The notes under the pieces are model-generated. The model did not search any database. It was not told where the DNA came from and saw only the letters and a list, made by a program, of their open reading frames with translations. A program made the translations under genes and the position numbers. Below are positions 1,202 to 18,539 of a stretch of 18,539 nt of DNA, piece by piece. Source of the DNA: an archaeon. GTDB taxonomy: Archaea; Iainarchaeota; Iainarchaeia; Iainarchaeales; CSSED10-239. Location of the stretch: the NCBI GenBank assembly GCA_041677685.1, contig JBAYPN010000015.1:1-18539 (forward strand). The letters are read 5' to 3'. Each line of letters begins with the position of its first letter. Positions within the stretch are counted from its first letter, which is position 1.

Positions 1202-1303
1202 AGTTATTTCTTACTTAAAGTTATGTATTTATAAATGTTTCTAATTATAATATTTCTAAATAATTTATATAAAAACTTTATAAAAAATATGGAATGGTAG
1301 ATT

Positions 1304-2686
1304 ATGTTTAAGAAATATATACTTTTGTTATTTTCAATAATTTTAATATCAAGTGCATTATTTGCAGGTGCTTCTAGCACAACTGCAGATATCCCACTTG
1401 TCTTTAAATTTAAAGGAGAGTTTATAGATAATGTTGATGATATTACTTTTACATCCGCAACAGTTACTTTTAATAGTGTTCAAATAGCATTTACAAATGA
1501 TAATGATGAATTTTTAGAAGGTTTCTTTTCAGATGTTGTAAACAACATTCCAAAAAATGAAAAGTATTTAGATTTAGAATATAGAATAAAGATTATAGAT
1601 AATTCTGTTGAAGGATTTGGTGTTGCAGAGAATCTATCTTATAATTTTAAAATTCTAAACCCTTACTTTTCAGAATTAGGCGCAGTTTCTTTTAATTATA
1701 TTGATAACGATTCTGTTACAAGTGAAAATATTATAAATGATACTATTAAAGTAAACAAAATTGCTTTAAGATCAGTTACAAATTCAAAAATTAAAGATGA
1801 TGCAATTAATGGGAAATTATCTATGATTTCAACTTCTAAGATTGCAAACAATTCTATAACTAATACTCATATCCAAAATAGCTCAATTAGTCCTGATAAA
1901 TTAAATTCAGTTCAAGTTAATTTAGAAAGCTTAGTTTCTATTAATAGTGAGGGTGCTCTTGCAACAAAAGACTACAACTTTGGAGGTGGTCCTAAAATAG
2001 TTGCACTTGAAGGTTTAGGTTTATCAAACTCTGTTTTAAGTGTTGTGAGTTCAGGAGTTAAGGCAAAGCATATTAAATCAAAAAATATAACAACTCCTAA
2101 GATTGACGTTTCTGCAGTTACTGGTCATAAAATTGCAAATAGTGCAATTACAACAAATAAGATTATTGATTCTTCAGTATCTACAGACAAGGTTTTAAAT
2201 TCTTCAATTGCTACCTCTAAGATTAAAGATTTTGATGTTGGGTTAGAAAAGCTAGATGACAAGATTATTAAATCTACATATTGTGTAAATAAAAAAATAG
2301 AAATTGGACCAGTTATTGAAAATGGTACATTTATAATAGACTCAACTACCCTAAATATAAATGATTCTTGTTTTGTTAACAGAGATGATCCAACAAAAAT
2401 AAGTATAACTTTTGATGTTTCTAACATCTCTGCAAATTATGCATATCAGGGCATATACCTTTTTAATGAATCAGATGATTTGAAATTAACTTCTAGATGG
2501 TTTTGTAGTAAGTTAGGTGGCTATATGTCTGATTTTACTGAAGTTTCAAAATCATATGCTAATGGTTTGGCTTATACTTTTAATAAAGGGAATAATAAGA
2601 ATTATACTTTTGATTATGTTTATAGTGACGATAGTAAAAACTATTTAGAAACTGTAACTTGTGTATTTGAGGAGATTTATAGTTAA
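1304..2686 (+). CDS. secreted fibre-like repeat protein, paralogue 1 (460 aa), function unknown
   Basis: Sec-type signal peptide (MFKKYILLLFSIILISSALFAGA/SS). The N-terminal domain shares motifs with the next two ORFs: IPLVFKFKGEF, GFFSD and NPYFSEL. Two blocks of ~11-residue repeats such as SITNTHIQNSS and AITTNKIIDSS span about nt 1709-2270. The C-terminal domain has four Cys. Confidence 0.8.
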   Translation: MFKKYILLLFSIILISSALFAGASSTTADIPLVFKFKGEFIDNVDDITFTSATVTFNSVQIAFTNDNDEFLEGFFSDVVNNIPKNEKYLDLEYRIKIIDNSVEGFGVAENLSYNFKILNPYFSELGAVSFNYIDNDSVTSENIINDTIKVNKIALRSVTNSKIKDDAINGKLSMISTSKIANNSITNTHIQNSSISPDKLNSVQVNLESLVSINSEGALATKDYNFGGGPKIVALEGLGLSNSVLSVVSSGVKAKHIKSKNITTPKIDVSAVTGHKIANSAITTNKIIDSSVSTDKVLNSSIATSKIKDFDVGLEKLDDKIIKSTYCVNKKIEIGPVIENGTFIIDSTTLNINDSCFVNRDDPTKISITFDVSNISANYAYQGIYLFNESDDLKLTSRWFCSKLGGYMSDFTEVSKSYANGLAYTFNKGNNKNYTFDYVYSDDSKNYLETVTCVFEEIYS

Positions 2687-2699
2687 TTTTTAATTTATA

Positions 2700-2706
2700 A
2701 GGTGAT
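2700..2706 (+). promoter_or_regulatory. Shine-Dalgarno site AGGTGAT for paralogue 2
   Basis: AGGTGAT is complementary to the conserved 16S rRNA 3' end (AUCACCU). It lies 3 nt upstream of the ATG at 2710, inside a 23-nt intergenic spacer. Confidence 0.7.
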
Positions 2707-2709
2707 TTT

Positions 2710-4077
2710 ATGAAAAATAAATTTTTAAAGATTTTTATAATATTTATATTCTTTTTTATAAGTGTTGGGGTGGTAAGTTCATTTAGTATTCCATCAGTTG
2801 TAAAAATTACAGGTAGTATTGATTTAACAGAAACTAATGGAACTTATGTTGTTTATGCTTTTGTTAATGATCATTTAATAGGTTATAAATATTATTCAAA
2901 TTATGATGATTTAAGATTAGGACTTTATAATGGTTTTTTCTCAGACCCATTTGATATTTCTAAAACTGGAGATGGTGAGAGTTATAGTTTTGTTTTAAGT
3001 GTTAGTAGAACATATATAGTAAATGGAATAGACTATACTGTTATTAATAATTCAGACCCTATTCTTTTTCCAAACCCAAATTATAGTAATTTAAGTTATA
3101 CAGTAGACATTGTTGATAGTTCAATTACTACCCCTAAGATTAAAGATAATGCAGTTGGAGAAAATGACTTGGGAGCTAATTCAATTTGGACTGTTAGTAT
3201 TCCTGAAAATGTAGTAACTACAAATAAGATTAAGAATGATTCAATTAAAGGTACAGATTTTTCATTAGAGGCAATTGTTTCTGAAAAAGTAGCTGACAAC
3301 ACTATTGAAAAACCAAAGTTAAAAATAGAACCATCTAATCCTAACACAACCTATTCAGAATTCTTAGCAAAAACAGAAAATGATAATTTTTCTTGGGTTT
3401 CTAATGTTTCAGAAGATTATGAATTTGCTGTTGGGCAAGGTTTGTTTAAGGCTTTTGTTACAATGTCAAATACGACCTATGTAGGTATTGGTAATGAAAA
3501 AGTTGAAACAGGTATGTTTGAAGATAATTCTGTTACAACTAACAAAATAAAAGACTTAGCAGTAACAAATCCTAAACTTTCAGACAACTCAGTTTCAAGA
3601 CAAAAAATTATGGCTGATGCAATTGTTACTAGTAAGATTCAAAATCAAGCTGTAACAAATTCAAAAATTAAAAATAAAAACATAAATCAAGATAAATTAA
3701 ATAACACAGAATACTATTCACTATTAAAGTGTGGTCAAACATATTATAGTGTTTCTGGTAATATGTATGATTTAGAATTTGATAATTGTAATATTAATTA
3801 TAATAATTCAGAAAATAAATATTTAGTAACATATAATAATATTTTAATAAAGAAAGATGCTTCTACTAAATATTATTTTTCAAATAAAGATTTTACAAAA
3901 AATATAAATTTAATAAAAGGTTATTGTAACTCTAGAGGTGGAAGTCTAAACTCATACACTACAGAAAGTGGATCTTTTAATAGCCTTTTAGGTTTGACAG
4001 AAAAAGGAGAATTGCAAGTTGATTCTGGTACTTCTAAAATTAAAAATATAGTTTGTGAATTTTATTATATTGAATGA
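2710..4077 (+). CDS. secreted fibre-like repeat protein, paralogue 2 (455 aa), function unknown
   Basis: Signal peptide (MKNKFLKIFIIFIFFFISVGVVSS). Shared N-terminal motifs IPSVVKITGSI, GFFSD and NPNYSNL. 11-residue repeats start at residue 136 (nt 3115), the same residue number as in paralogue 1, for example SITTPKIKDNA, SVTTNKIKDLA and AVTNSKIKNKN. Four-Cys C-terminal domain. Confidence 0.8.
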   Translation: MKNKFLKIFIIFIFFFISVGVVSSFSIPSVVKITGSIDLTETNGTYVVYAFVNDHLIGYKYYSNYDDLRLGLYNGFFSDPFDISKTGDGESYSFVLSVSRTYIVNGIDYTVINNSDPILFPNPNYSNLSYTVDIVDSSITTPKIKDNAVGENDLGANSIWTVSIPENVVTTNKIKNDSIKGTDFSLEAIVSEKVADNTIEKPKLKIEPSNPNTTYSEFLAKTENDNFSWVSNVSEDYEFAVGQGLFKAFVTMSNTTYVGIGNEKVETGMFEDNSVTTNKIKDLAVTNPKLSDNSVSRQKIMADAIVTSKIQNQAVTNSKIKNKNINQDKLNNTEYYSLLKCGQTYYSVSGNMYDLEFDNCNINYNNSENKYLVTYNNILIKKDASTKYYFSNKDFTKNINLIKGYCNSRGGSLNSYTTESGSFNSLLGLTEKGELQVDSGTSKIKNIVCEFYYIE

Positions 4078-4100: not shown

Positions 4101-5477
4101 ATGATAAAAAAAATATTTGGAATTTTTGTAATAATAATTAGTTTTCTTTTAATTATAAATGTTGGATATGCACACGATGTTCCTTTTGTAATTAAGATAA
4201 CTGGAGATTTAAATTTAAGTGATACCTCTCAAGATATTGGAATAAAAGCATATGTTAATGTTATATCAAACGATAATTTAGTTTTAGATAAAACAAATTT
4301 ACCATATGCAAACTTTAACTCCGAAATAGCCACTGGTTTTTTTACAGATCCAATTTCTAAAGATTTGACAGGAACTGATAAGACTTTCCCATTAAGAATT
4401 ATAGTTGAAGTAAACAATAGTAGTTTTCCTAAAACAATTTCAATTTCAAATCCAAATTATAGTAGTTTAGAGTATTATGCAAACAATTTAGTGGTTAATT
4501 CTCTAAATAATAATAAATTTGCAGATAAATCAATCACAACAAATAAGCTAAAGGATAACAGTGTTTCAGAAAGTAAAATTAATTATGTTTATGGAGAAAA
4601 TTTAGTAGATAATGCAGTTACTGGTTCAAAGATTAAAAATAATACTTTAACTAAAAGTAATTTTGCAAATGAAGGTCTAAATTATGTTGATTTTAAAATA
4701 TTGAATAATAATTCTGGAATTAATTATTTGTCAAAGAATCCAGATAATTCTGCTTTTGTTGCAGTTGGCACAATTGCAGCTATTGATTTAATGGAAGCTG
4801 GTGCTGGTATATTAAAAACAAACCCTTCTGAAATGAATACTTTTTCAATCAAGGATCTAGGAATTGTAAATAGTATGATTGGTAACAATGAAATTACAAC
4901 TAATAAATTGAATGATGGGGCAATAATTACTTCTAAGCTTGCAGACGACTTTATAACAACAAATAAATTTGCTGAGGGTGCTGTGGAAAATGCAGACTTG
5001 GACATAATGGAAACTGTGGACTTTGCAAACAACTCTTTGACTGTTAAGAAGTTGTCTGAGGAGGCATTGACTGCACTCTTATGTAATTCTGTGGATGTTT
5101 TTGTTTATAGGAGTGGACCAAATACTTCTTTAGGAGTTGCAAGAACAAATCATGATTGTGATGTTAGTTTTAATGGTTCTGAAATAAATGTAACATATGG
5201 AAATGTAAGATTTGAGAATGTGACTGAATTGGATGGTGGACCTTTTAAACTAAATGGAAATGAGATTTCAGGAAAAGCATTTTGTGCATTGCATAATGGT
5301 AAATTTTTAAGTGGTGATGAAGTTAGCGATTCTGTTTCCAATATTGCTTGGGTGCAATCTGATAATCTATGGGCAAGAGGAACAACTACAGAGAAATATT
5401 ATTCAGATATAACTTGTGTTTTTGATGGTGTTACTAAATATTCATCAGGATCATCAGGAAATTCAGGGGTAGAATAA
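4101..5477 (+). CDS. secreted fibre-like repeat protein, paralogue 3 (458 aa), function unknown
   Basis: Signal peptide (MIKKIFGIFVIIISFLLIINVGYA/HD). Shared motifs VPFVIKITGDL, GFFTD and NPNYSSL. 11-residue repeats include SITTNKLKDNS, EITTNKLNDGA and FITTNKFAEGA. Four-Cys C-terminal domain followed by a Ser/Gly-rich tail. Confidence 0.8.
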   Translation: MIKKIFGIFVIIISFLLIINVGYAHDVPFVIKITGDLNLSDTSQDIGIKAYVNVISNDNLVLDKTNLPYANFNSEIATGFFTDPISKDLTGTDKTFPLRIIVEVNNSSFPKTISISNPNYSSLEYYANNLVVNSLNNNKFADKSITTNKLKDNSVSESKINYVYGENLVDNAVTGSKIKNNTLTKSNFANEGLNYVDFKILNNNSGINYLSKNPDNSAFVAVGTIAAIDLMEAGAGILKTNPSEMNTFSIKDLGIVNSMIGNNEITTNKLNDGAIITSKLADDFITTNKFAEGAVENADLDIMETVDFANNSLTVKKLSEEALTALLCNSVDVFVYRSGPNTSLGVARTNHDCDVSFNGSEINVTYGNVRFENVTELDGGPFKLNGNEISGKAFCALHNGKFLSGDEVSDSVSNIAWVQSDNLWARGTTTEKYYSDITCVFDGVTKYSSGSSGNSGVE

Positions 5478-8829: not shown

Positions 8830-9165
8830 ATGGACTTTCAAAAAATAGGGGCTTATGCTTTTTTATTTGGAATTTTAATTTCAATTATTTTTGGATTGAT
8901 TTACTCTACAGGAAATCCAAGTTGGGTATCAGTAGCACTAATAATCTTAGGTTTAATAATTGGATTATTAAACATCTCTGACAGAAATGTATCTTTATTC
9001 TTAATTGCAGCAATAGCATTTATTGCAACAAGCAATTCTATAAATGCATTACCTGTAATTGGGGATCTTTTAAGAGGAATTTTAATAAATTTAGTTCACT
9101 TTGTAGGACCAGCTGCAATGATTGTTTCAATCGTTGCAATCATTAGGGTTGCAAATACTAAATAA
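8830..9165 (+). CDS. small polytopic membrane protein (111 aa, 3-4 predicted TM helices), function unknown
   Basis: ATG preceded by GGGGG (8816-8820). Almost the entire protein is made of hydrophobic helices: AYAFLFGILISIIFGLIY, VSVALIILGLIIGLL, LFLIAAIAFIA and FVGPAAMIVSIVAII. Confidence 0.65.
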   Translation: MDFQKIGAYAFLFGILISIIFGLIYSTGNPSWVSVALIILGLIIGLLNISDRNVSLFLIAAIAFIATSNSINALPVIGDLLRGILINLVHFVGPAAMIVSIVAIIRVANTK

Positions 9166-9360: not shown

Positions 9361-12300
9361 ATGGGTAAGGAAGAAAAAAAAAGAAATAATTTTTTCTCAA
9401 AAATATACAGTAGCTTAGAAAAAGGTTATTATAATTTTTCAAATTGGTTAACAAAGAAAGGAATCAACCTAAATGCTTTAAATAAAAAATTAGAAAATAA
9501 AGGAGTTCCTCCATTTATCTTGTTTGGTTCAATCTTACTAATTATAATCTTACTAGTATTATTCTTATTTGTGTTTAATGTTAATGCAACTTCTGAAATC
9601 AAATTTAGTATTCAAGGTTCTGACAACAAGTCAATCAATGATGCAAGCCTTGTGATTAAAGATGTTAAAGGTAAAAAGGTATTTTCAGGAACAGTAAACA
9701 ACAACGATGTTATTAAGATAAATCTAAAGCCAGGAAAAACATATTCCTTTTCTGCAATGAAAGATGGTTATAAGCCTTTTAACAAAGACTTTTTAATTGA
9801 ATCAAAAGAAGACCTAATTGTAATTGTTTTTAATGAAATTATTCAGAACGGAATCTTACAAATTAAAATAATAGATTCTCAAGACAAAAGAATTGTTGCA
9901 AATGCTCTAGTTACTGTTAGCTACTTGCTTGATGGGAAAAGAACAGAAATCTCAGGTAAACCAGATAAAAATAATTTCTATGATGTTAACTTACAAGTCC
10001 CAATCAACAAGGACATAGAGCTAATTGTCTCTGCTGACAAATACCAAGACCATAAAGAAACAATAAGATTAAATTCTGAAGCAGAAACTAGAAACATAGA
10101 GCTTGTTTTTAATAGTGGGCTTTTAGAAGGAAAAAGCAGAATTACTTTTGTGGTTAATGATGAGGCTGGAGAGTTGTTGAATGATTCTATAGTTGAAGTC
10201 TATAATCTATCTGATCAACTAATAGCTCAGAACAGAACTGTTGATGGAAGAGCAATTATTGATGTTGATTCTGGCTCAACAATCAACTACAAGGTAAGTA
10301 AAGAAGAATACAGGACCTTTGTAAGTGATCCTTTAATCTCTTTTAAAATATTAAACAAAGAAGAGATAATAAACATTACCCTAAAGAAAGGAGGAAGCTC
10401 TTTGAAAGTAAAAATACTTGATTCAATTTCCTTTAATCTTTTACAAGATGCTTCTGTCTCCATTTATGATCAAAACCAATCATTGTTAGACAACAAGACA
10501 ACTGACCTTTCAGGAACTATCAACTTCCAAGGCTTAGAAACAAACTCAGAGTTTATTGTTGTTGGTTGTAAGCAAAATTATTTTTGTGAAAGTAAAAAAG
10601 TTTCTTTAATTAATTTCTCAGAACTAGAGTTAAGGTTAGAAGAAATAAACATAAATAATAGTGCAATTTTAGAAGTCTTTGTTGTTGACTTTAAAAATCT
10701 ACCTGTAGATAATGCAAAAATTAAAATCTTTGAAATAAAAGATGAAATTGAATATCCTTATAATGATGAACCATTTGTTCTAGATGCAACTGGTGGACTT
10801 TCCTTACCTTTAAAGGTTGGTTCTAAATATCTTGTGTATGCTTATGTTGGAGATGTTGAAGACTACCAGTATATAACCATTAGTAACAAACTACAAAATA
10901 GAATTATTTTTACAATTGAGCAATCTTCAAAAATCTTAACCTTAGACTTACTAGATAGCTTTGGACAGAAAATAAGTTCAGGACATGTATCAATTTCTGC
11001 AAAGGACGGAACAATTTTATATGACTCAGACATCAACTCTGCATTAGATGATATTATGTTTCGTACAGATGGTTATTCTGACTTTATATTAAATTACACA
11101 GATTCAAATGGTGTAACAACAACTGGGACACTATCAGCAAATGATGCAGACTCAGCAAACCATTTAGGCTTTAAACTTAACCCTAAAGTAGTTGGTGATT
11201 TTCCAATCATTGACTTTGTAGGCATACAGAATAGTAGAGGGGAAAAAATAAATTATATTTCTCCAAACAATGATTATTATTTAATATTTGATGTAATTGT
11301 TCCACAAGGCACAACCAAAGCAGGAGTGCATATTAGAGCTGGAGAGGACACTGTTACTGATTCTGAAAATCAAAGTTATGGAATCACAGGCTTTATGGCA
11401 GACACAACAAACTTCACCTACTCAACAACCTACAATCCTTTACCTGAACCTGGTTCACAATCAATAGATGTCTTAAACCAAGGAAATGCAGGAAACATTA
11501 ACAAATGGATTGAGCTAAAATGGGATAATAAGCTTGGAGTTACAAACAAGCAAATTAAAATTAAAGTAAAAGCAATTGACTCTTCTACATTTAAACCAAA
11601 ATTTAAATACAGGGCATGGGTTGAAAGAGACTTTGAGGTTTACAGAGATCCACAAGACTCAACCCTACAAAAGAAATACTCAACAAACAACAGACAACAA
11701 CTTTATGCAGACACAAAAGAAATAACTGTAGAGTTATTTGATGTTCCTGCAGAATGTAAAGATGATATTTGTGTGTCTTATAGCTTTATTGACTCAGATG
11801 GAATTAGTTATTCTAAAGAGGACTTTTTTGCATTAAAGGGAGATGTGTTTGCTTTAGAAGCTACACTTTACAGTAATAAAAATAGAGTAATTAAATTAAA
11901 CACAAAGACATCAACTACCCAACCAGCAATCTCATTTATAAGTGCTGATGAAGGAACTTTAGCTTTTCCAACAAACTTTAATCTAGGCACAATTTCAGAA
12001 CTTGAACTAAACAAAGATGGAATTAATTTAAGGGCTGGAGAGCGAAACAAAGTCTACACTTACTTTGTCTCAAAAGCAATTGGTGTAAGTTATATTGATT
12101 CAAAATTTATTTTAGAAGATGACTCTGCTCTTGAACAAAGATTAAGCTTTGAGGTTCTTGACAAAAGATACTTAAGAATATTATTTAATCCTGACCTAAT
12201 ATTACCATTTGGTTCTAAACTAGAGTTAGAGGTCTTTGATTCAGCAAATGGAAACCCAATTGAAAATGCTTTTATAAAGATTGAAGATGAGCAAGGGCAA

Positions 12301-15300
12301 TTTATAAGACTAATAAAAGGAGATAGACTAAATGGAAGGGCAGGAAAATATGTAATCAATTCAGATTTTGTTGTAAACAAATTAAATTTAACAATCTCTG
12401 CTTATGGTTATGTGCCATTTACCAAACAACTTTTGATTGCTGATGACTCTGTTCTTGTTGCTCCAAAGGAAGTGTTGATTAACTTAGGGGTTGATCAAAT
12501 TTCTCAAACTGTAAATTTCAATTTAGAAAATATTTCTGACACCTCAGTAACTGACATCTATGTTGGAGAACCTGTTTGGGTAAATGGGGCTGACACCTTG
12601 ACTTTGGATGTTAGAGGACCACCAAGTGTTACTAAGAAAAATAAAATAAACTTTCAAGCAATTGCAACAGTTTCAAAAGATGCATTATTTGATTCTGCAT
12701 ATGCAAATGTTCCAATCTATGGGCTTGTGGGGAATAGGCAAGTTGCAACTGTTGTTTCTATAAGGATAAACAGAGGGTTGATAGTTGATGACTGTTTGGT
12801 AATTGCACCAAAAAAGATTGACACTTTTGTTGGGCTAAACACCAATTTCAATTATGATGATTATTATGGGGCTGGAGACTACCAAGACTTTATAGGCTCA
12901 CAAAATTTAAATTATACACCTAATCAAAGCTATAACACAGGATATGGTGGGTCTATTCCAGGTTCAAGTAATTCCAATTCCAACTACAATTATTATAATG
13001 ATGGCTTTAACAGATATATTAACAACTTCATAACCTCTAGAGCAGGAGCCTCTGAAAACACAGTAGTTTTTACTATTCAGAATAAATGTGAACAAATAGT
13101 TTTCTTAAACCCAAAGTTAGTTCCAATCTCTTCAAATTCAAACAATGATCTTGAAATTATATTAAATCAGTTGACTATACTTCCAGGTGAAGAAAAGCTA
13201 TATGATGTGCTTATTAAAAACACAAGTGATAGAGAACAAATTAAAAAATATAAATTTAATATTTTGTGGGAAAATTCTTTTTATAATCTTTCACCTACAG
13301 AACTTAATGTTGACTTGATAGATGTAAGTAAAGCTTTGTGGGTTGCACCTACACAATTACAGATCTATTTATCACAGACAACCGAACAACAACCAGCAAT
13401 AACAAGCACAAGAATTATGATTAAAAATATTGGAAATGTTCCAATAACTGACATACAGATAAGCACTTACCCACAGATCAAGTCTGCAAATATTGGAGTA
13501 ACTGAATACCCAAGGGAGATAAAGATTTTAGAGCCTGGTAAACGAGTTCCTGTTGATCTAAAGTTTACAGTTAACATTAATAGAGCAACTTTAGAAGACA
13601 TGTACTTTGTTGTTACTGGAAAGGCAGCAGGTGTGAAAAATCCAGTCTTTGCAAAAACAACTGCCTACTTTTTAATTTCTTCTCCTAATTGTCTAAAGAT
13701 TAGTCCTAAAAATCTAGACTTTACTTTAAATTTAGGAGAGAAAAAAGCAAGAAATATTTCTATTAATAACCAATGTGCAGAGCCTGTAGCAATTGTTGGA
13801 ATTGATAAAAGACTTGGTAGTTACCAACAAGCCTTTGGGAATAACGCTGTGTCTTTAGTTCCAACATCTGGGATGGGGGTAATTCCACCAAACGGTTTTG
13901 CAGACTTTTCATTTTCAATAACTGCAAATGCATATGGTGGACAACCAAAGGTTCCTGTAACAATTATTGGACAAGCTTTAAATTCAGGTAATTATGTAAC
14001 TTCAGAGAGCACTTTAGTTTCTTTAAATATTCTATCTAAAGATCAAGATGAACAAAATGATTTCTTACAATCTTTTGAAGTAACTCTTCCTGTTTGTAAT
14101 AACCCTTCTGAGTCTAAGACTGTGTACATGCCTTTAATCTCTGTTAATGACTGTACAGGTAGGGATGGTTATTGTGATTCTTATGGAGCTTCTGAATTGA
14201 TACTATCAAAGATTGATGAGATGTATGGAAAAATACAGACAGTTGCTGCACACTCCCAAAATCAATTATTAAAAACTGGTTGTTCTGTTCAAAAGGCTTT
14301 ACAAGGATATTGTCCAATCTCTGATCTTGGGGGGGACTTAGGTCCTGTTGAGTTTGATGTTTACCTACAGAACGATTCTTTATCTTATGACCTAGTCAAA
14401 GAGATCTTAAGCAAATCAGATTATAAATTTAAAAAATATTTTGTTGATGTTGCAGTTCCAAACAGTAACCTTACAGGGTATGGTACCTATCAATATGGGG
14501 GGAAAATAAACATCCCTAATCTTTCTGGTTGTGGGAAATATAAATTAGAGTTGAATGCCTTTATTGGAGCTAACCAAGACAGCATCTTTCCAAACAGAGT
14601 TAACTTCTTAGTAAATTTAGTTTCTTATAAACAAACTGAACAATGTGAAAAAAGTATTGAAAATTATTTAAATTATTTGCCGTGGGACATAGACCTTACA
14701 AAGAATAAAAGTAAAGGCACCTGGTTAACTGTGTTTTCAGGTGATGAGAATGTAGCAAAAGAGATTTTAAGTGGAGTTAGTAAATTTGAAAAGAATGATA
14801 ATAGATATGTGAAGGGTAACATTCCAAGCACTAAACAAAATCATCTTAACATCAGAGTTGGAAAGATTAATGAAGATCAAGAGGCTTTAGCAAAAATATA
14901 CTTTAATGATCTACAAAAAAGTCCTTCCTCTAAACCTGAACAACTAAATATTGTAATAAATAATAGATATGCAATTTCTGGAACTTCACAATTGCCTGAA
15001 AAAGTATTGACTGATGCTAAGATCTTAATCAATAATTTTATAAGTAAGACTGATTATACAGAAAATTGTATTTCAGAAAATCTAGATTATATGTTAATCT
15101 TAAAAGTTATAAAAGCAGGGAGATTAGAATTTGATCCTAAAGAAAAGACAAGTGTTGTTTTAGTTGATAAAGTTTGTACTGATCTAAACATTGTTTCTGA
15201 TATTTTAGAAAATGTTGTTTTAAACCTAAAAGCACCAAATGACCTAAACACTTGGTTTGAATATAGAAATAAAAAATATGATTCTCTTGGTTTAGATTTA

Positions 15301-17367
15301 AAACAAGGAGTGTCAAATGATTTTAATGTATGTTATATTCCACAAAATGATCAGATCTATAATCTGGTTGGAAAAGACATAATTGTAAGTGCAAGAAGTA
15401 TTTATTCTACAAGTCTTAAAGCAGGAAATGTTGGACAAAGAAAGTCTGAGGCAACCATCCATTTGTCAAGTTGCGGAGTTACACCTGTTGATGTTTTAGA
15501 GATTGTAAGTAACAAGGTGGTTGCTGCTAACAAGGATGGTGGTTCTGCACAAGACACCTATTATGCTTTGGTTGATTGGAACAGATCATATAACCCTACA
15601 GACACAGAGACTTTGTGTGACACAATAAATAAGTATATTGAGAAAAATCCAAGCTCTAGTTTATTTTTTGACTATAAGTTAGAAAATTGTAATACTGGAA
15701 AGACTAAGGCTGAAAAGGAAGCTAAAAACAATAAAGCAATAAATAATGCTTTGACTAAATATTTTGTACCATGTATGGCAACCTGTACAGCTTGTACTGC
15801 TGGGACAAATGCTATTTTTGGGATGGTGCCTGTTTTGGGGCAGATCAAGTTGTTGTCAGGGGTAGTTGTTGATTGTGGAATTTTTGCTTGCGGTTTACCA
15901 TCAGCAAGCATATATTTGAATACTGTTACTGGAAAGGGATTTTCAGATTTTATTGATGGTTGGTTAACAAAGTTATTTATTGGAGAACAAAATAAACAAA
16001 CAGGCACAGAGATTCATCTTGCTAGAAGTGTTGTTGGGGGAATTGAGGGGATGAGTACCTGGATTGCAGAAGTCTTTAATGGAACAAATCTTGAGAGTCC
16101 TGGGGCAACAACACTTGGTATTGGGACTGCACAGGCACTTTCAGGGTCAAGGATGGTAAAAGCAACTCCACTTGGTTTTGAGAAGGGAGCTTCTTCTGTC
16201 TTAGAAGGAGTTTCAGGGACTTTAACTCCTGTAGGGGCAGTGGTTCCAACACCTCCTGTAACTCCACCTCCTGTAACTCCTCCGATAGTTACAAATGTTC
16301 CACATACAGTTGATGCAAGACTTGGAAAATATGTAAGTTACATGAACGGAACAAGCACTTCCTATTCCTTTGTTCCACATGATCCTGCGATGGCTGCAAG
16401 AATTTTGCCAAGAGTAACAAATACTGCTGGAGCATACATACCTAGTCAAATTGAGAGTTTGACAGCAAGTGAGTTAGATGACTTGGTTTCACTTATAAGG
16501 AATGGGACTTTTTCAAAAGCAAGGCCTAATCTTTTTGCATTAAATCCAAGCTCTTTGGCTAGTCAAGTAGAAACATTTGCAATTAAAAAATATCCAACAC
16601 ATCCCTTTACCTTTGGAGTTGGGGCAACAGCTACAACACCTCCTGCAGGAACAGCAGGAACACCTGGGGGAGCTGGGGCAACAGCCTTAGAAGGAATCTC
16701 ACAAGTAGAGTATGATGATCTGTTAAATACAATAGAGACCCAAAAGGCAGAAATTAAAGGTAATCTAGATAAAATTACTGCTGAGAAAGCAAAACTTACA
16801 GATCTACAAGATGGTTCTAAAAAATGGTACCAGAAACATAAGAAAGCAACAGGAACTAAAAAAGCACTTACAAGACTTGAGGTAAATGCAAAGCCACTAG
16901 AAGACGCTATGAAACAATTAGATGATCTAGAAAGAGCATTAAAGCCAGGGGGAACAAGATTAACTCCAACTGTTGTAGATGCTGCAGGAAACCCAAAAAT
17001 CCCAATTAATGATGCTATTAAAAATCAGATTACTGATTTAGAAAGTTCTGTGGTAAGAAAAGCAAAAGTAAAGTTTAGTGCAAAATTAGCAAATTTTGGG
17101 GCAGGAATGTTTAGGGCTCTTGCTTGTGGAATTTTAGGGAATGTTGCTGGAAGTAATGTTTTAACAGATACTGGAATTACAGGTTTAGATCATTCTGTGT
17201 TAATCAACGATAATGTTAATTTTAATAGAAACACATTATATAAGGTTGACATTATAGACAACCAAGACTCACAAGATCCAAATAACAAAAGTAGATATGA
17301 TTTAAAGATAGAAAGCTATGTTGGTTCAACATCTAATAATCAGAGGATAGATAATTGTTCTAAATAG
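9361..17367 (+). CDS. giant membrane-anchored surface protein (2,668 aa from ATG 9361, or 2,673 aa from TTG 9346)
   Basis: One uninterrupted ORF of 8 kb. The features in order are:
- a basic N-terminus followed by one TM helix (PPFILFGSILLIIILLVLFLFVF, nt ~9508-9576)
- about six tandem ~85-aa beta-sandwich repeats resembling CarboxypepD_reg/PEGA domains (nt ~9595-11100), with one more at ~12170-12440
- Ig-like modules with a PapD/ASH/CARDB-like pattern (~12440-13980)
- an N/Y/G/S low-complexity segment (12838-13030)
- a Cys-containing distal region
- a compositionally distinct C-terminal module (15772-17367)
No enzymatic motif was recognised. Confidence 0.85.
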   Translation: MGKEEKKRNNFFSKIYSSLEKGYYNFSNWLTKKGINLNALNKKLENKGVPPFILFGSILLIIILLVLFLFVFNVNATSEIKFSIQGSDNKSINDASLVIKDVKGKKVFSGTVNNNDVIKINLKPGKTYSFSAMKDGYKPFNKDFLIESKEDLIVIVFNEIIQNGILQIKIIDSQDKRIVANALVTVSYLLDGKRTEISGKPDKNNFYDVNLQVPINKDIELIVSADKYQDHKETIRLNSEAETRNIELVFNSGLLEGKSRITFVVNDEAGELLNDSIVEVYNLSDQLIAQNRTVDGRAIIDVDSGSTINYKVSKEEYRTFVSDPLISFKILNKEEIINITLKKGGSSLKVKILDSISFNLLQDASVSIYDQNQSLLDNKTTDLSGTINFQGLETNSEFIVVGCKQNYFCESKKVSLINFSELELRLEEININNSAILEVFVVDFKNLPVDNAKIKIFEIKDEIEYPYNDEPFVLDATGGLSLPLKVGSKYLVYAYVGDVEDYQYITISNKLQNRIIFTIEQSSKILTLDLLDSFGQKISSGHVSISAKDGTILYDSDINSALDDIMFRTDGYSDFILNYTDSNGVTTTGTLSANDADSANHLGFKLNPKVVGDFPIIDFVGIQNSRGEKINYISPNNDYYLIFDVIVPQGTTKAGVHIRAGEDTVTDSENQSYGITGFMADTTNFTYSTTYNPLPEPGSQSIDVLNQGNAGNINKWIELKWDNKLGVTNKQIKIKVKAIDSSTFKPKFKYRAWVERDFEVYRDPQDSTLQKKYSTNNRQQLYADTKEITVELFDVPAECKDDICVSYSFIDSDGISYSKEDFFALKGDVFALEATLYSNKNRVIKLNTKTSTTQPAISFISADEGTLAFPTNFNLGTISELELNKDGINLRAGERNKVYTYFVSKAIGVSYIDSKFILEDDSALEQRLSFEVLDKRYLRILFNPDLILPFGSKLELEVFDSANGNPIENAFIKIEDEQGQFIRLIKGDRLNGRAGKYVINSDFVVNKLNLTISAYGYVPFTKQLLIADDSVLVAPKEVLINLGVDQISQTVNFNLENISDTSVTDIYVGEPVWVNGADTLTLDVRGPPSVTKKNKINFQAIATVSKDALFDSAYANVPIYGLVGNRQVATVVSIRINRGLIVDDCLVIAPKKIDTFVGLNTNFNYDDYYGAGDYQDFIGSQNLNYTPNQSYNTGYGGSIPGSSNSNSNYNYYNDGFNRYINNFITSRAGASENTVVFTIQNKCEQIVFLNPKLVPISSNSNNDLEIILNQLTILPGEEKLYDVLIKNTSDREQIKKYKFNILWENSFYNLSPTELNVDLIDVSKALWVAPTQLQIYLSQTTEQQPAITSTRIMIKNIGNVPITDIQISTYPQIKSANIGVTEYPREIKILEPGKRVPVDLKFTVNINRATLEDMYFVVTGKAAGVKNPVFAKTTAYFLISSPNCLKISPKNLDFTLNLGEKKARNISINNQCAEPVAIVGIDKRLGSYQQAFGNNAVSLVPTSGMGVIPPNGFADFSFSITANAYGGQPKVPVTIIGQALNSGNYVTSESTLVSLNILSKDQDEQNDFLQSFEVTLPVCNNPSESKTVYMPLISVNDCTGRDGYCDSYGASELILSKIDEMYGKIQTVAAHSQNQLLKTGCSVQKALQGYCPISDLGGDLGPVEFDVYLQNDSLSYDLVKEILSKSDYKFKKYFVDVAVPNSNLTGYGTYQYGGKINIPNLSGCGKYKLELNAFIGANQDSIFPNRVNFLVNLVSYKQTEQCEKSIENYLNYLPWDIDLTKNKSKGTWLTVFSGDENVAKEILSGVSKFEKNDNRYVKGNIPSTKQNHLNIRVGKINEDQEALAKIYFNDLQKSPSSKPEQLNIVINNRYAISGTSQLPEKVLTDAKILINNFISKTDYTENCISENLDYMLILKVIKAGRLEFDPKEKTSVVLVDKVCTDLNIVSDILENVVLNLKAPNDLNTWFEYRNKKYDSLGLDLKQGVSNDFNVCYIPQNDQIYNLVGKDIIVSARSIYSTSLKAGNVGQRKSEATIHLSSCGVTPVDVLEIVSNKVVAANKDGGSAQDTYYALVDWNRSYNPTDTETLCDTINKYIEKNPSSSLFFDYKLENCNTGKTKAEKEAKNNKAINNALTKYFVPCMATCTACTAGTNAIFGMVPVLGQIKLLSGVVVDCGIFACGLPSASIYLNTVTGKGFSDFIDGWLTKLFIGEQNKQTGTEIHLARSVVGGIEGMSTWIAEVFNGTNLESPGATTLGIGTAQALSGSRMVKATPLGFEKGASSVLEGVSGTLTPVGAVVPTPPVTPPPVTPPIVTNVPHTVDARLGKYVSYMNGTSTSYSFVPHDPAMAARILPRVTNTAGAYIPSQIESLTASELDDLVSLIRNGTFSKARPNLFALNPSSLASQVETFAIKKYPTHPFTFGVGATATTPPAGTAGTPGGAGATALEGISQVEYDDLLNTIETQKAEIKGNLDKITAEKAKLTDLQDGSKKWYQKHKKATGTKKALTRLEVNAKPLEDAMKQLDDLERALKPGGTRLTPTVVDAAGNPKIPINDAIKNQITDLESSVVRKAKVKFSAKLANFGAGMFRALACGILGNVAGSNVLTDTGITGLDHSVLINDNVNFNRNTLYKVDIIDNQDSQDPNNKSRYDLKIESYVGSTSNNQRIDNCSK

Positions 17368-17421
17368 TTTTTTTTAATTTTTCTTTTTAGATTTTAATTT
17401 TTCTTTTTAGATTTTAATTTT
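17368..17421 (+). terminator. T-rich 20-bp tandem repeat (about 2.5 copies) immediately after the giant gene, candidate terminator
   Basis: A T8 run starts right after the TAG stop. The unit (A/T)TTTTAATTTTTCTTTTTAG occurs at 17371-17390 and 17391-17410, with a partial copy at 17411-17421. Each unit carries T4-T5 runs. Confidence 0.45.
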
Positions 17422-17577
17422 ATTATAAAGTATTTTTCTTATTTTGGTGTACATGCTTATGTTTGTTTTCAAGATATAAAAAAAATAAGGAAGCTAGGCA
17501 TAAAACTTCAACCATCTCTATTTATAAACTTTTTCATAATATATATTATTAATTTTATTAAAAATTATATATTTTTT

Positions 17578-17590: not shown

Positions 17591-18539
17591 ATGTTTGAAT
17601 TATTTAAGAATAGTAAGGGTCAGATTTCTGTTGAAGTTTTGACAATTGTTGGAATATTAGTTATTGGTGGAATTATTTTTGGAGTGTTTTATTTATCTCA
17701 GATTAATAGAAGTATAGATGATGCTGATCAATTAGACACTAGTATAGGCGATCAATTTGGAGAGGTTTTGACACCTGTGGGAATGGGTAATATTCTTCCA
17801 ACTTGTTCTGATAATATACAGAATGGACTAGAGCAAGGTGTAGATTGTGGAGGTCCTTGTCCACCGTGTGTAATTTCTGGTGATGATTGTGGGGATGGTT
17901 ATTGTGATGTTCTTGGGGGAGAATGTGATACTTGTCCTCAAGATTGTATAAATAATGAGTGTGATCCAATTCCAACAACTTTTCTTTTAGAAGTAGATCC
18001 TGAGAGTTACACAGGATTTGTTGGACAGACTTATTATGGTCCTGAAGTTACTATTATTTTAAATCAATCTTCTAGTGTTGATTTGTCATTAAAGGTTGAA
18101 AAAAATAATGCTTTAAATAATTTAATAATTACAGATGAATGTACTTATGATGGTATCCAAATTAATGGTAATACTTTTATTGGAAATTACACTTCTGATG
18201 CTATTTTCTTTAAAAATATTGTATGTTCTCAAGAAGACACTTATTATTTCACATTTACTGGTGATGATGGTGAATATCAGATTATAAGACCATTCGAATA
18301 CACAACAACCTCAGATATCACTCCTCCAGGAAACAACAATTATGCTCTATGTTCAACTTCTGCTCTTTCAGGAGGCTCTGATACTTTAAGAGTTTGTTTA
18401 AATGATTATACAACTACTTTAGACTTAGGTGGTTCTGACTATTTAACAATCTATGTTAACCAACCAGATGCTTTAGAAAATAATTGTAAGCTTACTTCAA
18501 AGGGTAGCAAGATTTGTGTGTATGTTGGTAATAGTTGGA
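17591..18539 (+). CDS. archaeal type IV pilin-like protein with class III signal peptide and a Cys-rich module (3'-truncated by the window end)
   Basis: This ORF is not in the supplied track because it has no stop inside the window. I translated it by hand and it stays open for 316 codons from ATG 17591. The N-terminus is MFELFKNSKG/QISVEVLTIVGILVIGGIIFGVF. That matches the archaeal prepilin (class III, DUF361-type) signature: a short basic leader, KG, then Q-x-S-x-E and a hydrophobic helix. A 10-Cys module follows (nt 17804-17962), and then a beta-rich region. Confidence 0.8.
   Translation, partial: MFELFKNSKGQISVEVLTIVGILVIGGIIFGVFYLSQINRSIDDADQLDTSIGDQFGEVLTPVGMGNILPTCSDNIQNGLEQGVDCGGPCPPCVISGDDCGDGYCDVLGGECDTCPQDCINNECDPIPTTFLLEVDPESYTGFVGQTYYGPEVTIILNQSSSVDLSLKVEKNNALNNLIITDECTYDGIQINGNTFIGNYTSDAIFFKNIVCSQEDTYYFTFTGDDGEYQIIRPFEYTTTSDITPPGNNNYALCSTSALSGGSDTLRVCLNDYTTTLDLGGSDYLTIYVNQPDALENNCKLTSKGSKICVYVGNSW

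What the first reader, a model, noticed from the sequence alone, without database searches (positions are those of the whole stretch)
9361..17367. An 8-kb gene encoding a ~2,670-aa membrane-anchored multidomain surface protein with no recognisable catalytic domain
A single ORF occupies 43% of the window. It has a short basic cytoplasmic N-terminus and one TM anchor, followed by more than 2,000 aa of beta-sandwich and Ig-like modules, a low-complexity segment and a cysteine-containing distal region. The cysteines there include VCNNPSE, NDCTGRDGYCDSYGA, TGCSVQKALQGYCPISD, LSGCGKYK and TEQCEKS, which implies extracellular disulfides.

Giant surface proteins are a recurring and largely uncharacterised feature of small-genome episymbionts (DPANN archaea and CPR bacteria). 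From memory, some have been linked to host attachment. This one carries none of the protease or nuclease motifs I would recognise, so it may represent a different type. It sits between a small membrane protein and a pilin-like gene, which suggests a dedicated surface-structure locus.
Basis: partly seen in the sequence, partly recalled or inferred. Interest (0 to 1): 0.8.

Follow-up and report, generated by a model that had tools for sequence, protein, structure and literature searches.

The report
Giant archaeal surface protein, wall-cutter family
This 8-kb gene is real and encodes a giant membrane-anchored surface protein of a tiny DPANN archaeon (Iainarchaeota); in many of its relatives the far end carries enzymes that cut bacterial cell walls, and this copy has lost that end.

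Summary
The ORF (9361-17367, 2,668 aa) is confirmed. It is intact in two further assemblies and conserved end to end in Iainarchaeota/Diapherotrites (145 clusters at 50% identity).

It opens a conserved cluster: small membrane protein, giant A, a ~570-aa pilin-like protein, then giants B, C and D. This cluster was already noted in Ca. Forterrea as "five large membrane-anchored proteins" (PMC5905446).

Architecture:
- a conserved ~50-aa cytoplasmic motif shared by all the giants, then one TM
- about 1,400 aa of beta-sandwich stalk
- a 570-aa head with near-invariant cysteines
- a hydrophobic cysteine-bracketed hairpin, coiled coil and a small terminal module

No catalytic domain is found in this copy. 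However, 49 of 83 full-length relatives continue past a conserved R-I-D-x-C junction into extra tails. Eleven carry peptidoglycan hydrolases above Pfam thresholds (SLT, NlpC/P60, amidases, glucosaminidase). The window's clade is tail-less and nested among tailed sisters, so the tail was probably lost.

Best reading: one arm of a cell-contact, envelope-breaching apparatus, here reduced to attachment or scaffold. This is a new variant of a known, uncharacterised kind, of moderate interest.

The parts
8830..9165 (+). 111-aa membrane protein with about four hydrophobic segments, directly upstream of giant A
   Evidence: 70-75% identical and in the same position in L003, L007, L009, L012, L013 and L018. 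No family hit. Not related to the EpsH-like protein that occupies this position in the distant clade (hhalign probability 0.2%).
9361..9510 (+). Conserved cytoplasmic N-terminal motif of giant A (aa 1-50): FSKIYxxLEKxYxxFSxWLxKKGIxLxxLNxxLExKG-(V/I)P
   Evidence: Y16, E20, G34, P36, G48 and P50 are at least 80-90% conserved in 83 homologues. The motif is shared with giants B, C and D. An HMM of it hits 82 of 83 A-type and 3 of 3 B-type proteins. It is absent from Pfam and NCBIfam. AlphaFold predicts two helices.
9511..9579 (+). Single transmembrane anchor (aa 51-73)
   Evidence: Kyte-Doolittle 3.41. Family median 2.95, and at least 2.0 in all 82 scored. Positive-inside flank.
9592..12780 (+). 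Stalk I: about ten tandem beta-sandwich (MG/Ig/CarboxypepD_reg-like) modules, aa 78-1140
   Evidence: AlphaFold pLDDT is mostly 75-90 and all-beta. Foldseek matches alpha-2-macroglobulin MG arrays, the GhpA grappling-hook neck and PrgB Ig domains, E 1e-20 to 1e-11. Pfam CarboxypepD_reg at aa 957-1027, E 2.8e-11. A CnaB/SpyCatcher-like hit covers aa 77-152, E 3.5e-4.
11194..11955 (+). Most conserved domain of the protein (aa ~612-865; GVHIRAGxD ... NKW ... YRAW ... RxPxD ... CxxxxC), nested inside Stalk I and shared with paralogue giant B
   Evidence: Highest conservation along the alignment. H657, R659, G661, D663, W716, R751, W753, R762, P764, D766, C799 and C804 are at least 80-100% conserved. 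BLAST of A against B over aa 16-813 gives E 8e-17. No Pfam or PDB sequence match.
12793..13089 (+). Variable low-complexity N/Y/G/S-rich loop bracketed by C1145 and C1243
   Evidence: Alignment occupancy is 0.4-0.5 and conservation 0.15-0.2, while both flanking cysteines are 99% conserved. AlphaFold pLDDT below 35.
13093..14040 (+). Stalk II: about three further beta-sandwich modules (aa 1245-1560; DUF7507/CLIPPER_2-like)
   Evidence: Pfam DUF7507 at aa 1352-1405, E 6.6e-4, matching in 4 of 6 close homologues with best E 1e-6. Conserved pair C1444/C1472. aa 1201-1468 were not modelled.
14041..15735 (+). Cysteine-containing head (aa 1561-2125), mixed alpha/beta
   Evidence: C1579, C1605, C1641, C1651, C1724, C1762, C1903, C1939 and C1991 are 92-100% conserved in 83 homologues; C2038 is 77% conserved. 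AlphaFold is confident only for aa ~1608-1758 and 1918-2108. The only fold match is a generic MSP/PapD-like sandwich. No Pfam or PDB sequence relative.
15763..15930 (+). Hydrophobic hairpin bracketed by conserved cysteines (aa 2135-2190: YFxxC ... ~30 small or hydrophobic residues ... DCG(I/L)PA)
   Evidence: C2138 98%, C2172 99%, G2160 and P2180 at least 80% conserved. Kyte-Doolittle median 1.63, with only 51% of members at or above 1.6, so it is borderline for a TM. AlphaFold predicts two helices at low confidence. Absent from giant B.
15931..16701 (+). Variable Ala/Gly/Thr/Pro-rich linker with the PT-rich stretch VPTPPVTPPPVTPPIV (aa 2295-2310, nt 16243-16290)
   Evidence: Conservation 0.08-0.15. 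Local GC rises to 0.40. Motif located.
16702..16941 (+). Long helices, coiled-coil-like (aa 2448-2527)
   Evidence: DSSP helices at model residues 980-1017 and 1030-1059. Weak profile matches to coiled-coil chains, E 0.03-0.5.
17074..17364 (+). Conserved terminal module (aa 2572-2668): Gly-rich helix GxGFARxxACGxxGNxAG, a small beta domain (YK ... SRY ... KI) and the junction motif R-I-D-x-C (aa 2662-2666). The protein ends 2 aa later.
   Evidence: G2597 and Y2627 at least 80% conserved, C2666 73%. In 49 of 83 homologues the chain continues at least 100 aa beyond this cysteine. Here, and in P0002, P0003, P0004, P0011 and P0012, it stops within 2-10 aa. The stop codon is TAG at 17365-17367. No remnant of any tail is found in the window or in the clade's loci.
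17592..18539 (+). Downstream gene, cut by the window end (317 aa in L001): class III (type IV pilin-like) signal peptide plus a cysteine-rich module
   Evidence: The N-terminus reads KGQ|ISVEVLTIVGILVIGG. PF04021 E 0.0036 and TIGR04205 E 0.0021, both below their cut-offs. Together with the following Peptidase_M6 gene it is an insertion found only in the window lineage.

Best explanation
**What it is.** Giant A is a surface-exposed, N-in/C-out protein of an Iainarchaeota (DPANN) cell. It is one arm of a conserved multi-giant cell-contact apparatus: a small membrane protein, giant A, a pilin-like ~570-aa protein P, giant B, giant C, a secreted 965-aa protein, then giant D.

**Shown**
- The gene is real, conserved and syntenic.
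- A ~50-aa cytoplasmic motif plus one TM, shared by the paralogous giants, anchors it.
- About 13 beta-sandwich modules follow, then a head with near-invariant cysteines.
- The chain ends in a conserved module: a hydrophobic cysteine-bracketed hairpin, a PT-rich linker, a coiled coil, a Gly-rich helix and a small beta domain.
- That module stops at an R-I-D-x-C junction.
- In most other lineages the junction is followed by interchangeable tails. Eleven of these carry SLT, NlpC/P60, Amidase_2, Amidase_3 or glucosaminidase domains above Pfam thresholds.
- The window's clade lacks any tail and is nested among tailed sisters.

**Inferred**
- The sandwich array acts as a stalk that projects the head and C-terminal module tens of nanometres from the cell.
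- The head binds another cell's surface.
- The C-terminal module is presented to that cell's envelope. In tailed relatives it cuts murein, which implies a bacterial target, because archaea have none.
- In this tail-less copy the protein keeps the attachment, scaffold and possibly membrane-active roles. It relies on partners for any lytic step. Candidates are giants B to D, protein P, and the M6 metalloprotease encoded two genes downstream on the parent contig L001. Alternatively, the lineage now targets a cell without murein.
For: **The gene is real and conserved**
- ORF and composition.
- Independent assemblies.
- Full-length orthologues.
- 145 representatives in an exhaustive HMMER search, nearly all 2.4-3.0 kaa, with the C-half starting at about residue 1,400-1,500.
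- Taxon labels.

**Synteny and paralogy**
- The order A-P-B-C holds in L001, L003, L005-L015, L017, L021-L024, L026 and L027.
- Giants C and D and the 965-aa protein are seen in L028.
- A and B are paralogous over ~800 aa.
- The shared N-terminal motif is documented.
- P has a prepilin-like N-terminus, KGF|NLFTALVSL, invariant in 9 orthologues.

**Architecture**
- Beta-sandwich stalk.
- Conserved cysteines and hairpin.

**Tails**
- 49 of 83 full-length members have at least 100 aa after the junction cysteine.
- Pfam hits above gathering thresholds: NlpC/P60 (P0013, P0019, P0049); SLT (P0024, P0053, P0054, P0127, P0130, P0132); Glucosaminidase (P0049, P0063); Amidase_3 (P0049); Amidase_2 (P0129, P0132); GDSL (P0127).
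- In L026 the tail domain is a separate ORF just after giant A.
- An NJ tree places the tail-less window clade inside tailed clades.

**Literature**
- PMC8204110 and PMC9723730: large extracellular lytic-transglycosylase proteins in other DPANN, interpreted as acting on bacterial walls.
Against: - No experiment, localisation or expression data exist for any family member.
- This copy has no enzymatic tail, so a lytic role here is by analogy only.
- The largest tail class (25 of 83) has no Pfam hit. Its resemblance to the SLT catalytic motif is not significant: hhalign probability about 1%, and MltC at E 0.16. The position of the catalytic Glu is occupied by Lys.
- The C-half model is poor (pLDDT 49, six-sequence alignment), so the head and terminal module have no reliable fold.
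- The hairpin is only borderline hydrophobic. It could be a buried helical hairpin or a second anchor in the cell's own membrane.
- Type IV pilus genes are adjacent in only one genome (L005/L024). No ATPase hit was found in the other loci held, many of which carry 10 kb upstream.
- The NJ tree has no support values and is midpoint-rooted.
- All cultured DPANN have archaeal hosts (own knowledge), so a bacterial target remains unproven.
Confidence: 0.5

Rival explanations
1. It is a purely structural envelope or adhesion protein, an S-layer-like coat or spacer. The giants tile or decorate the cell surface, with no role in breaching another cell.
For: About 1,400 aa are generic beta-sandwich modules of the kind found in S-layer and adhesin proteins. 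This copy has no catalytic domain. Four or more paralogous giants are co-encoded. The hairpin could be a second anchor in the cell's own membrane, giving a protein tethered at both ends.
Against: There is no homology to any characterised S-layer family, and no PGF-CTERM, LPXTG or C-terminal TM. Peptidoglycan hydrolase tails on orthologues make no sense for a coat protein of a murein-less archaeon. The conserved terminal module with its polymorphic junction looks like an effector carrier.
Confidence: 0.22
2. It is an antibacterial weapon rather than a symbiosis organelle. The family delivers wall hydrolases to competing or prey bacteria on contact, in the manner of polymorphic-toxin systems. 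The window copy is a disarmed or re-armed variant.
For: Diverse, swappable peptidoglycan hydrolase tails follow a conserved junction. This resembles CdiA or Rhs-type polymorphism (own knowledge). Archaeal peptidoglycan hydrolases that kill bacteria are documented (PMC12352652, title and abstract). A 'vampiristic' reading has been proposed for DPANN with large lytic transglycosylases (PMC9723730).
Against: No immunity-like gene is needed or seen. The tail-less clade keeps the whole 8-kb gene under conservation: 38-51% identity across the full length, with invariant cysteines. So the core has a function independent of the enzyme. This reading also overlaps mechanistically with the best explanation, differing mainly in ecological purpose.
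Confidence: 0.15
3. It is the tip or accessory complex of a type IV pilus-like filament. Giants A to D and P are assembled or presented by a T4P machine. The conserved 'KG|(I/V)P' before the TM would be a prepilin-peptidase site.
For: P has a canonical prepilin-like N-terminus in every cluster. In L005/L024, a T2SSE ATPase, a T2SSF platform and several proteins with class III signals lie directly upstream of giant A. The window lineage has an extra class III signal protein next to A. G48 and P50 are over 90% conserved.
Against: T4P genes are adjacent in only one genome among the loci held. A conserved 47-aa leader with Pro at +2 and +5 is atypical for archaeal prepilins (own knowledge). No Pfam or NCBIfam pilin model hits A.
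Confidence: 0.1
4. It is an alpha-2-macroglobulin-like protease trap or other defence protein.
For: There are weak bMG3/MG hits and top Foldseek matches to bacterial alpha-2-macroglobulins.
Against: TM-scores are about 0.1, so only the repeated sandwich fold is shared. There is no thioester CxEQ motif and no thioester or bait-region domain hit.
Confidence: 0.02
5. It is an assembly artefact or chimaera.
For: None was found.
Against: The ORF is identical in two independent assemblies. Colinear orthologues occur in more than 15 genomes, including a closed chromosome. There are no internal DNA repeats.
Confidence: 0.01

Closest known systems
[quoted passage not shown] Forterrea multitransposorum (Probst & Banfield 2018, PMC5905446)
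   Same: The window protein is the orthologue of the first of these genes. It is 38% identical over residues 1-2667 to CP045477.1 (L011). The flanking genes match: NurA, a 153-aa wHTH protein, the 111-aa membrane protein, then A, P, B and C. The published interpretation is the same (cell-cell interaction).
   Different: The paper gives no domain analysis or mechanism. The window lineage carries an extra class III-signal gene and an M6 peptidase between A and P.
Large (up to ~3,000 aa) extracellular murein-like lytic transglycosylase proteins of Woese- and Pacearchaeota (fam00969, Castelle et al. 2021, PMC8204110; Vigneron et al. 2022, PMC9723730)
   Same: They are DPANN proteins of the same size class and predicted to be extracellular. 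Peptidoglycan-cleaving domains are present in many members of the window protein's family. The inference is also the same: contact with bacterial walls.
   Different: The window copy has no such domain. Named members of its family are all Iainarchaeota/Diapherotrites. I could not obtain fam00969 sequences, so homology between the two families is untested.
SPEARE proteins of Ca. Nanohaloarchaeum antarcticus (Hamm et al. 2019, PMC6642349; details from own knowledge)
   Same: A giant DPANN surface protein proposed to mediate host interaction.
   Different: SPEARE carries serine-protease, adhesion and restriction-endonuclease domains. None of these is detectable here, and no sequence similarity was found.
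Phage tape-measure and ejection proteins with muralytic and membrane-active parts (for example the mycobacteriophage TM4 tape-measure protein, PMC1796659; T5 Pb2, own knowledge)
   Same: The order of elements in the C-terminal module of tailed family members is alike: hydrophobic segments, long helices or coiled coil, then a peptidoglycan hydrolase at the distal end.
   Different: This is analogy only. There is no sequence or fold match. The protein is cell-encoded, N-terminally membrane-anchored, and preceded by a 2,000-aa stalk and head.
Polymorphic contact-dependent effectors (CdiA, Rhs and MAFB type; own knowledge)
   Same: A giant surface protein with a conserved core, a short conserved junction motif (here R-I-D-x-C) and interchangeable C-terminal domains.
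   Different: The tails are wall hydrolases, not nucleases or pore-formers. There are no FHA or YD repeats and no adjacent immunity genes. The protein is archaeal and the window copy is tail-less.
Bacterial alpha-2-macroglobulins and the GhpA grappling-hook protein of Aureispira (PDB 5a42, 4u48, 9flp)
   Same: Long strings of MG/Ig-like beta-sandwich domains (Foldseek E 1e-20 to 1e-17).
   Different: TM-scores are about 0.1. There is no thioester motif or domain. The similarity is confined to the repeated module.

Membership tests
Iainarchaeota 'giant A' family (defined here; includes the first Forterrea giant) | Length 2.4-3.0 kaa with a colinear full-length alignment | tested here: met
   The protein is 2,668 aa. 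It is 38-51% identical over 86-100% of its length to P0002-P0004. The C-half profile hits start at residue ~1,400-1,500 in nearly all of 145 representatives.
Iainarchaeota 'giant A' family | Conserved cytoplasmic N-terminal motif followed by a single TM | tested here: met
   (82 of 83 members).
Iainarchaeota 'giant A' family | Near-invariant cysteine set and the cysteine-bracketed hydrophobic hairpin | tested here: met
   The near-invariant cysteine columns (92-100% conserved) are all present in the window protein, including C2138 and C2172.
Iainarchaeota 'giant A' family | Synteny: A, then pilin-like P, then giant B, then giant C | tested here: met
   Seen on the window's own contig (L001) and in more than 15 other loci. 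The window lineage has two inserted genes between A and P.
Iainarchaeota 'giant A' family | C-terminal tail (often a peptidoglycan hydrolase) after the R-I-D-x-C junction | tested here: not met
   The protein ends 2 aa after C2666. No remnant is found downstream. This feature is variable in the family (49 of 83), so it is not required for membership.
DPANN large lytic-transglycosylase proteins (fam00969, PMC8204110) | Murein-like lytic transglycosylase (SLT/GH23) domain | tested here: not met
   There is no SLT hit in the window protein. SLT is present in relatives P0024, P0053, P0054, P0127, P0130 and P0132.
DPANN large lytic-transglycosylase proteins (fam00969) | Sequence homology to fam00969 members | not testable with these tools
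Named relatives found here are all Diapherotrites/Iainarchaeum.
SPEARE (Nanohaloarchaeota) | Serine protease, adhesion and restriction-endonuclease domains | tested here: not met
   No such Pfam or NCBIfam hits.
Bacterial alpha-2-macroglobulin / thioester proteins | Thioester motif CxEQ within a thioester domain | tested here: not met
   A regex search finds none. There is no thioester domain hit. MG-like hits are below the Pfam cut-off.
Archaeosortase or sortase substrates / canonical archaeal S-layer glycoproteins | C-terminal sorting signal (PGF-CTERM, PIP-CTERM or LPXTG, plus a TM and a basic tail) | tested here: not met
   There is no PGF or LPXTG and no C-terminal TM. An EpsH-like enzyme is adjacent only in the distant clade. 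No signal is present on A, P or B there.
Type IV pilin-like (class III signal peptide) proteins | Short leader, [K/R]-G cleavage site, then a hydrophobic helix, recognised by pilin models | tested here: inconclusive
   'KG|VPPF' plus a TM is present and G48 and P50 are conserved. However, it is preceded by a conserved 47-aa segment, and no pilin model hits it. Neighbour P and the 317-aa protein fit much better.
CnaB/SpyCatcher-type isopeptide adhesin domains | Lys-Asp isopeptide triad | not tested
   There is only a weak profile match of aa 77-152 to the FbaB CnaB2 domain (E 3.5e-4). Triad residues were not examined.

The most novel reading that the evidence does not exclude
The conserved C-terminal module is a membrane-insertion device. 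It comprises the cysteine-bracketed hydrophobic hairpin, coiled coil, Gly-rich helix and small beta domain, with or without a wall-cutting tail. After the head docks and the tail or a partner enzyme opens the target's wall, the hairpin would enter the target membrane. The giants A to D, held together by their shared cytoplasmic N-terminal motif, would then build the conduit through which the metabolically minimal archaeon draws nucleotides and lipids. That would make this a cell-encoded, archaeal counterpart of a phage ejection or tape-measure apparatus. The interchangeable tails would then record host range, bacterial or archaeal.
Probability: 0.12. Interest if true: 0.85.

Novelty: new variant of a known kind. 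Interest (0 to 1): 0.55.

Why it matters
How DPANN archaea attach to and extract resources from other cells, and whether any of them use bacteria rather than archaea as partners or prey, are open questions.

This family links the uncharacterised 'large membrane-anchored proteins' of Forterrea-type Iainarchaeota to a set of interchangeable peptidoglycan-cutting tails. That gives a concrete molecular handle:
- Tail type, or its loss as here, is a testable predictor of the target's envelope.
- The conserved N-terminal motif, the hairpin and the A-P-B-C cluster define parts that can be expressed, imaged and modelled.
- In Forterrea the cluster occupies about 5% of an 840-kb genome (PMC5905446), which argues that it is central to the lifestyle.

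Tried and rejected
- **Word-indexed homologue searches.** Searches with the whole protein and with the six-sequence alignment found only 6-9 proteins. The exhaustive HMMER search was needed to see the family.
- **N-terminal motif profile.** A search against 5.8 billion proteins returned only eight short fragments, so the motif's distribution outside this cluster is unknown.
- **PDB sequence-profile searches.** I searched with six-sequence and 42-sequence full-length alignments, the major-type tail, the CHAP-like tail and protein P. Results were only beta-sandwich hits or nothing.
- **Foldseek of the C-half model.** The PDB search gave generic Ig/MSP hits, and the viral library gave nothing at or below E 0.001. 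The model is too poor to interpret.
- **hhalign of the major tail class against SLT-type tails.** Not significant.
- **hhalign of the 111-aa membrane protein against the EpsH-like protein.** Unrelated.
- **DGR-type template/variable repeats or internal DNA repeats in the gene.** None found.
- **N-glycosylation sequon enrichment in the ectodomain.** None: 29 observed against 31 ± 5 in shuffles.
- **Thioester, PGF and LPXTG motifs.** Absent.
- **C-terminal sorting signals on A, P and B next to the EpsH-like gene.** None.
- **Enzymatic domains on giants B, C and D and the 965-aa protein of the tail-less clade.** None found.
- **PHROG hits for the C-terminal 535 aa, P and the 317-aa protein.** None.


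Full report
**1.

A single ORF runs from 9346 (TTG) or 9361 (ATG) to 17367 on the + strand. From the ATG it is 2,668 aa and takes up 43% of the window. All the quoted cysteine strings are present. There is one strong TM at aa 53-71 with a positively charged N-flank.

The gene is not an assembly artefact:
- The same ORF is intact on a 139-kb JGI/NCBI contig and on an independent 53-kb ENA contig, at 99.98% and 99.8% DNA identity to the window.
- Colinear orthologues of 2,629-2,855 aa exist at 38-51% identity.
- One orthologue lies on the closed chromosome of Ca. Forterrea multitransposorum.
- No internal DNA repeats or DGR-like repeat pairs are present.

**2. Whose gene it is**

The window has about 29% GC. 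It carries NurA and an M48 (HtpX-type) peptidase gene.

All relatives that carry a name are Ca. Diapherotrites, Iainarchaeum, Forterrea or unclassified 'archaeon'. The organism is therefore an Iainarchaeota (DPANN) archaeon related to Forterrea.

**3. Genomic context**

In every locus with enough sequence the order is giant A, then a 554-605-aa protein 'P', then giant B (2,300-2,470 aa), then giant C (1,846-2,826 aa).
- Further downstream in L028 lie a secreted 965-aa protein and a fourth giant, D.
- P begins with a prepilin-like sequence, KGF|NLFTALVSL, with F15, L17, F18, T19 and A20 invariant in nine orthologues.
- In the window's clade a 111-aa multi-TM protein and a 153-aa wHTH-like protein precede A.
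- In a distant clade an EpsH-like exosortase or archaeosortase homologue sits there instead. In one genome a T2SSE ATPase, a T2SSF platform and several class III-signal genes lie directly upstream.
- Only the window lineage has a 317-aa class III-signal, cysteine-rich protein and a 780-aa M6 metallopeptidase inserted between A and P.

**4. Anatomy of giant A**

| Region (aa) | Feature | Evidence |
|---|---|---|
| 1-50 | Conserved two-helix cytoplasmic motif, not merely 'short and basic' | Present in 82 of 83 full-length family members and in giants B, C and D; absent from Pfam and NCBIfam |
| 51-73 | TM anchor | |
| 78-1140 | About ten beta-sandwich modules | AlphaFold pLDDT about 80; Foldseek matches alpha-2-macroglobulin MG arrays, the GhpA grappling-hook neck and PrgB Ig domains, with TM-scores of only ~0.1, so only the module is shared |
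| 612-865 (within the array) | Best-conserved domain, shared with giant B | No known relative |
| 1146-1242 | Variable low-complexity loop between C1145 and C1243 | Both cysteines 99% conserved |
| 1245-1560 | Further sandwich modules | Pfam DUF7507, weak |
| 1561-2125 | Mixed alpha/beta 'head' | Cysteines 92-100% conserved in 83 homologues: 1579/1605, 1641/1651, 1724/1762, 1903/1939, 1991 |
| 2135-2190 | Moderately hydrophobic stretch bracketed by C2138 and C2172, ending DCG(I/L)PA | Kyte-Doolittle median 1.63, borderline for a TM; absent from giant B |
| 2191-2447 | Variable linker with a PT-rich stretch | |
| 2448-2527 | Long helices, coiled-coil-like | |
| 2572-2668 | Conserved Gly-rich helix plus a small beta domain, ending in the R-I-D-x-C motif | |

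The cysteine pairings listed are inferred from spacing. No coordinates were available to check them.

Pfam, NCBIfam, PDB profile searches and Foldseek find no catalytic domain in this protein.

**5. The key new result**

An exhaustive HMMER search with the C-terminal half found 145 representatives (50%-identity clusters). Of these, 119 score below E 1e-30. Almost all share the same overall size and register.

Of 83 full-length members:
- 49 continue at least 100 aa beyond the junction cysteine.
- 29 have 20 aa or fewer there. Of these, 17, including the window protein, end within 1-20 aa of an identified junction cysteine; in the other 12 no such cysteine could be located.

Eleven tails carry one or more peptidoglycan hydrolase domains above Pfam gathering thresholds:

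| Domain | Members |
|---|---|
| NlpC/P60 | P0013, P0019, P0049 |
| SLT | P0024, P0053, P0054, P0127, P0130, P0132 |
| Glucosaminidase | P0049, P0063 |
| Amidase_3 | P0049 |
| Amidase_2 | P0129, P0132 |
| GDSL esterase | P0127 |

Other tail classes:
- **Major class.** A further 25 tails form one class with no Pfam hit. It has a pattern reminiscent of the SLT catalytic helix, with Lys where the catalytic Glu would be. That similarity is not significant.
- **CHAP-like tail.** The sisters of the window clade (P0005, P0018, P0019; loci L006, L015, L017, L019, L021, L033) share a tail with invariant Cys and His in a CHAP-like arrangement. No model recognises it.
- **Separate ORF.** In L026 the tail is a separate ORF just after giant A.

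The window protein and P0002, P0003, P0004, P0011 and P0012 form a tail-less clade nested among tailed lineages in an NJ tree. The tree has no support values. No tail remnant is detectable in their loci. Secondary loss is the simplest reading.

**6. Mechanism**

*Shown:* membrane anchoring with the bulk of the protein outside, a modular stalk, a cysteine-stabilised head, a conserved terminal module, a polymorphic enzymatic end in relatives, and strict co-inheritance with P and the paralogous giants.

*Inferred:*
- The protein projects from the archaeal surface.
- It binds another cell through the head.
- It presents its C-terminal module to that cell's envelope.

Because archaea lack murein, the hydrolase tails imply bacterial targets for the tailed lineages. 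The same inference has been drawn for large lytic-transglycosylase proteins of Woese- and Pacearchaeota (PMC8204110, PMC9723730).

In the tail-less window lineage the protein most likely retains attachment and scaffold functions, and possibly membrane-active ones. A shift to a murein-less target, or reliance on the nearby M6 protease, is speculation.

Rivals:
- a purely structural coat
- an antibacterial weapon, which is the same mechanism with a different purpose
- a T4P tip complex
- an alpha-2-macroglobulin-like trap, which is excluded by the missing thioester motif

**7. Novelty and verdict**

The general interpretation, a DPANN giant surface protein in a surface-structure locus, is supported. 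However, the gene cluster was already noted in the literature. The suggestion that this is a distinct catalytic-domain-free type is only superficially right: it is a tail-less derivative of a family that commonly carries wall hydrolases.

What appears new here:
- the family definition
- the shared N-terminal motif
- the conserved hairpin and terminal module
- the junction with interchangeable muralytic tails
- the A-P-B-C-D organisation

I rate it a new variant of a known, uncharacterised kind, with moderate interest (0.55).

**8. Caveats**
- The AlphaFold alignments had only six sequences. The C-half model is unreliable.
- Taxon labels are sparse.
- Representatives may include truncated gene calls.
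- Homology to the published fam00969 could not be tested.
- No functional data exist for any family member.

Noticed in passing
window 1304-2686, 2710-4077, 4101-5477: Three tandem paralogous signal-peptide proteins (455-460 aa) carry 'I.T.KI.D.AVT..KI' repeats. These match phage tail-fibre families (phrog_892, E 1e-23 to 4e-14) but have no Pfam hit. The L003 relative has shorter, fragment-like versions. They may be additional, rapidly evolving surface or adhesion proteins next to the giant cluster.
   Followed up: partly
window 17592-18539 (complete in L001 18231-19184) and L001 19239-21581: A 317-aa protein has a class III (pilin-type) signal peptide and a cysteine-rich 'CGGPCPPC...DDCGDGYCD...ECDTCPQDC' module. 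It is followed by a 780-aa Peptidase_M6 (InhA-like) gene. Both are inserted between giant A and P only in the window lineage, which is the lineage whose giant A lacks a hydrolase tail.
   Followed up: partly
L005 9280-9930; L022 1462-2031; L023 272-922: An EpsH-like exosortase or archaeosortase homologue (PF09721, E 5e-6, with conserved Cys, Arg and His) lies directly upstream of giant A in the distant clade. No matching C-terminal sorting signal was found on A, P or B.
   Followed up: partly
L005 3486-9266 and minus strand 722-3375: In one Iainarchaeum genome a complete type IV pilus-like set abuts giant A. It comprises a T2SSE ATPase, a T2SSF platform and at least six small proteins with class III-type N-termini. 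The other loci held show no ATPase hit within the upstream sequence available.
   Followed up: partly
L026 7362-7841: The 'major-type' C-terminal tail domain occurs as a separate 159-aa ORF immediately after a giant A gene. This shows that the tail can be split from the giant.
   Followed up: no
window 17373-17427: A 20-bp unit (tttaatttttctttttagat) is directly repeated immediately after the stop codon of giant A, in the AT-rich intergenic region.
   Followed up: no
window 15500-17000: GC content rises to 0.40-0.41 against ~0.30 in the rest of the gene. The rise coincides with the Ala/Gly/Pro/Thr-rich variable C-terminal region, so it probably reflects composition rather than foreign origin.
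   Followed up: no
window vs L001 (whole length): Only 3 mismatches and 1 gap separate the window from the JGI contig over 18.5 kb. At least two of the mismatches are non-synonymous changes inside giant A: N/K near aa 906 and P/L near aa 2393.
   Followed up: no
L028 15579-18476 and 18492-21086: Downstream of giant C lie a secreted 965-aa protein with no family hit and a fourth giant (D). Giant D starts with a variant of the shared N-terminal motif (MSFKDAWQNFLTNIDNRIPIKKITGPLDKK...).
   Followed up: partly
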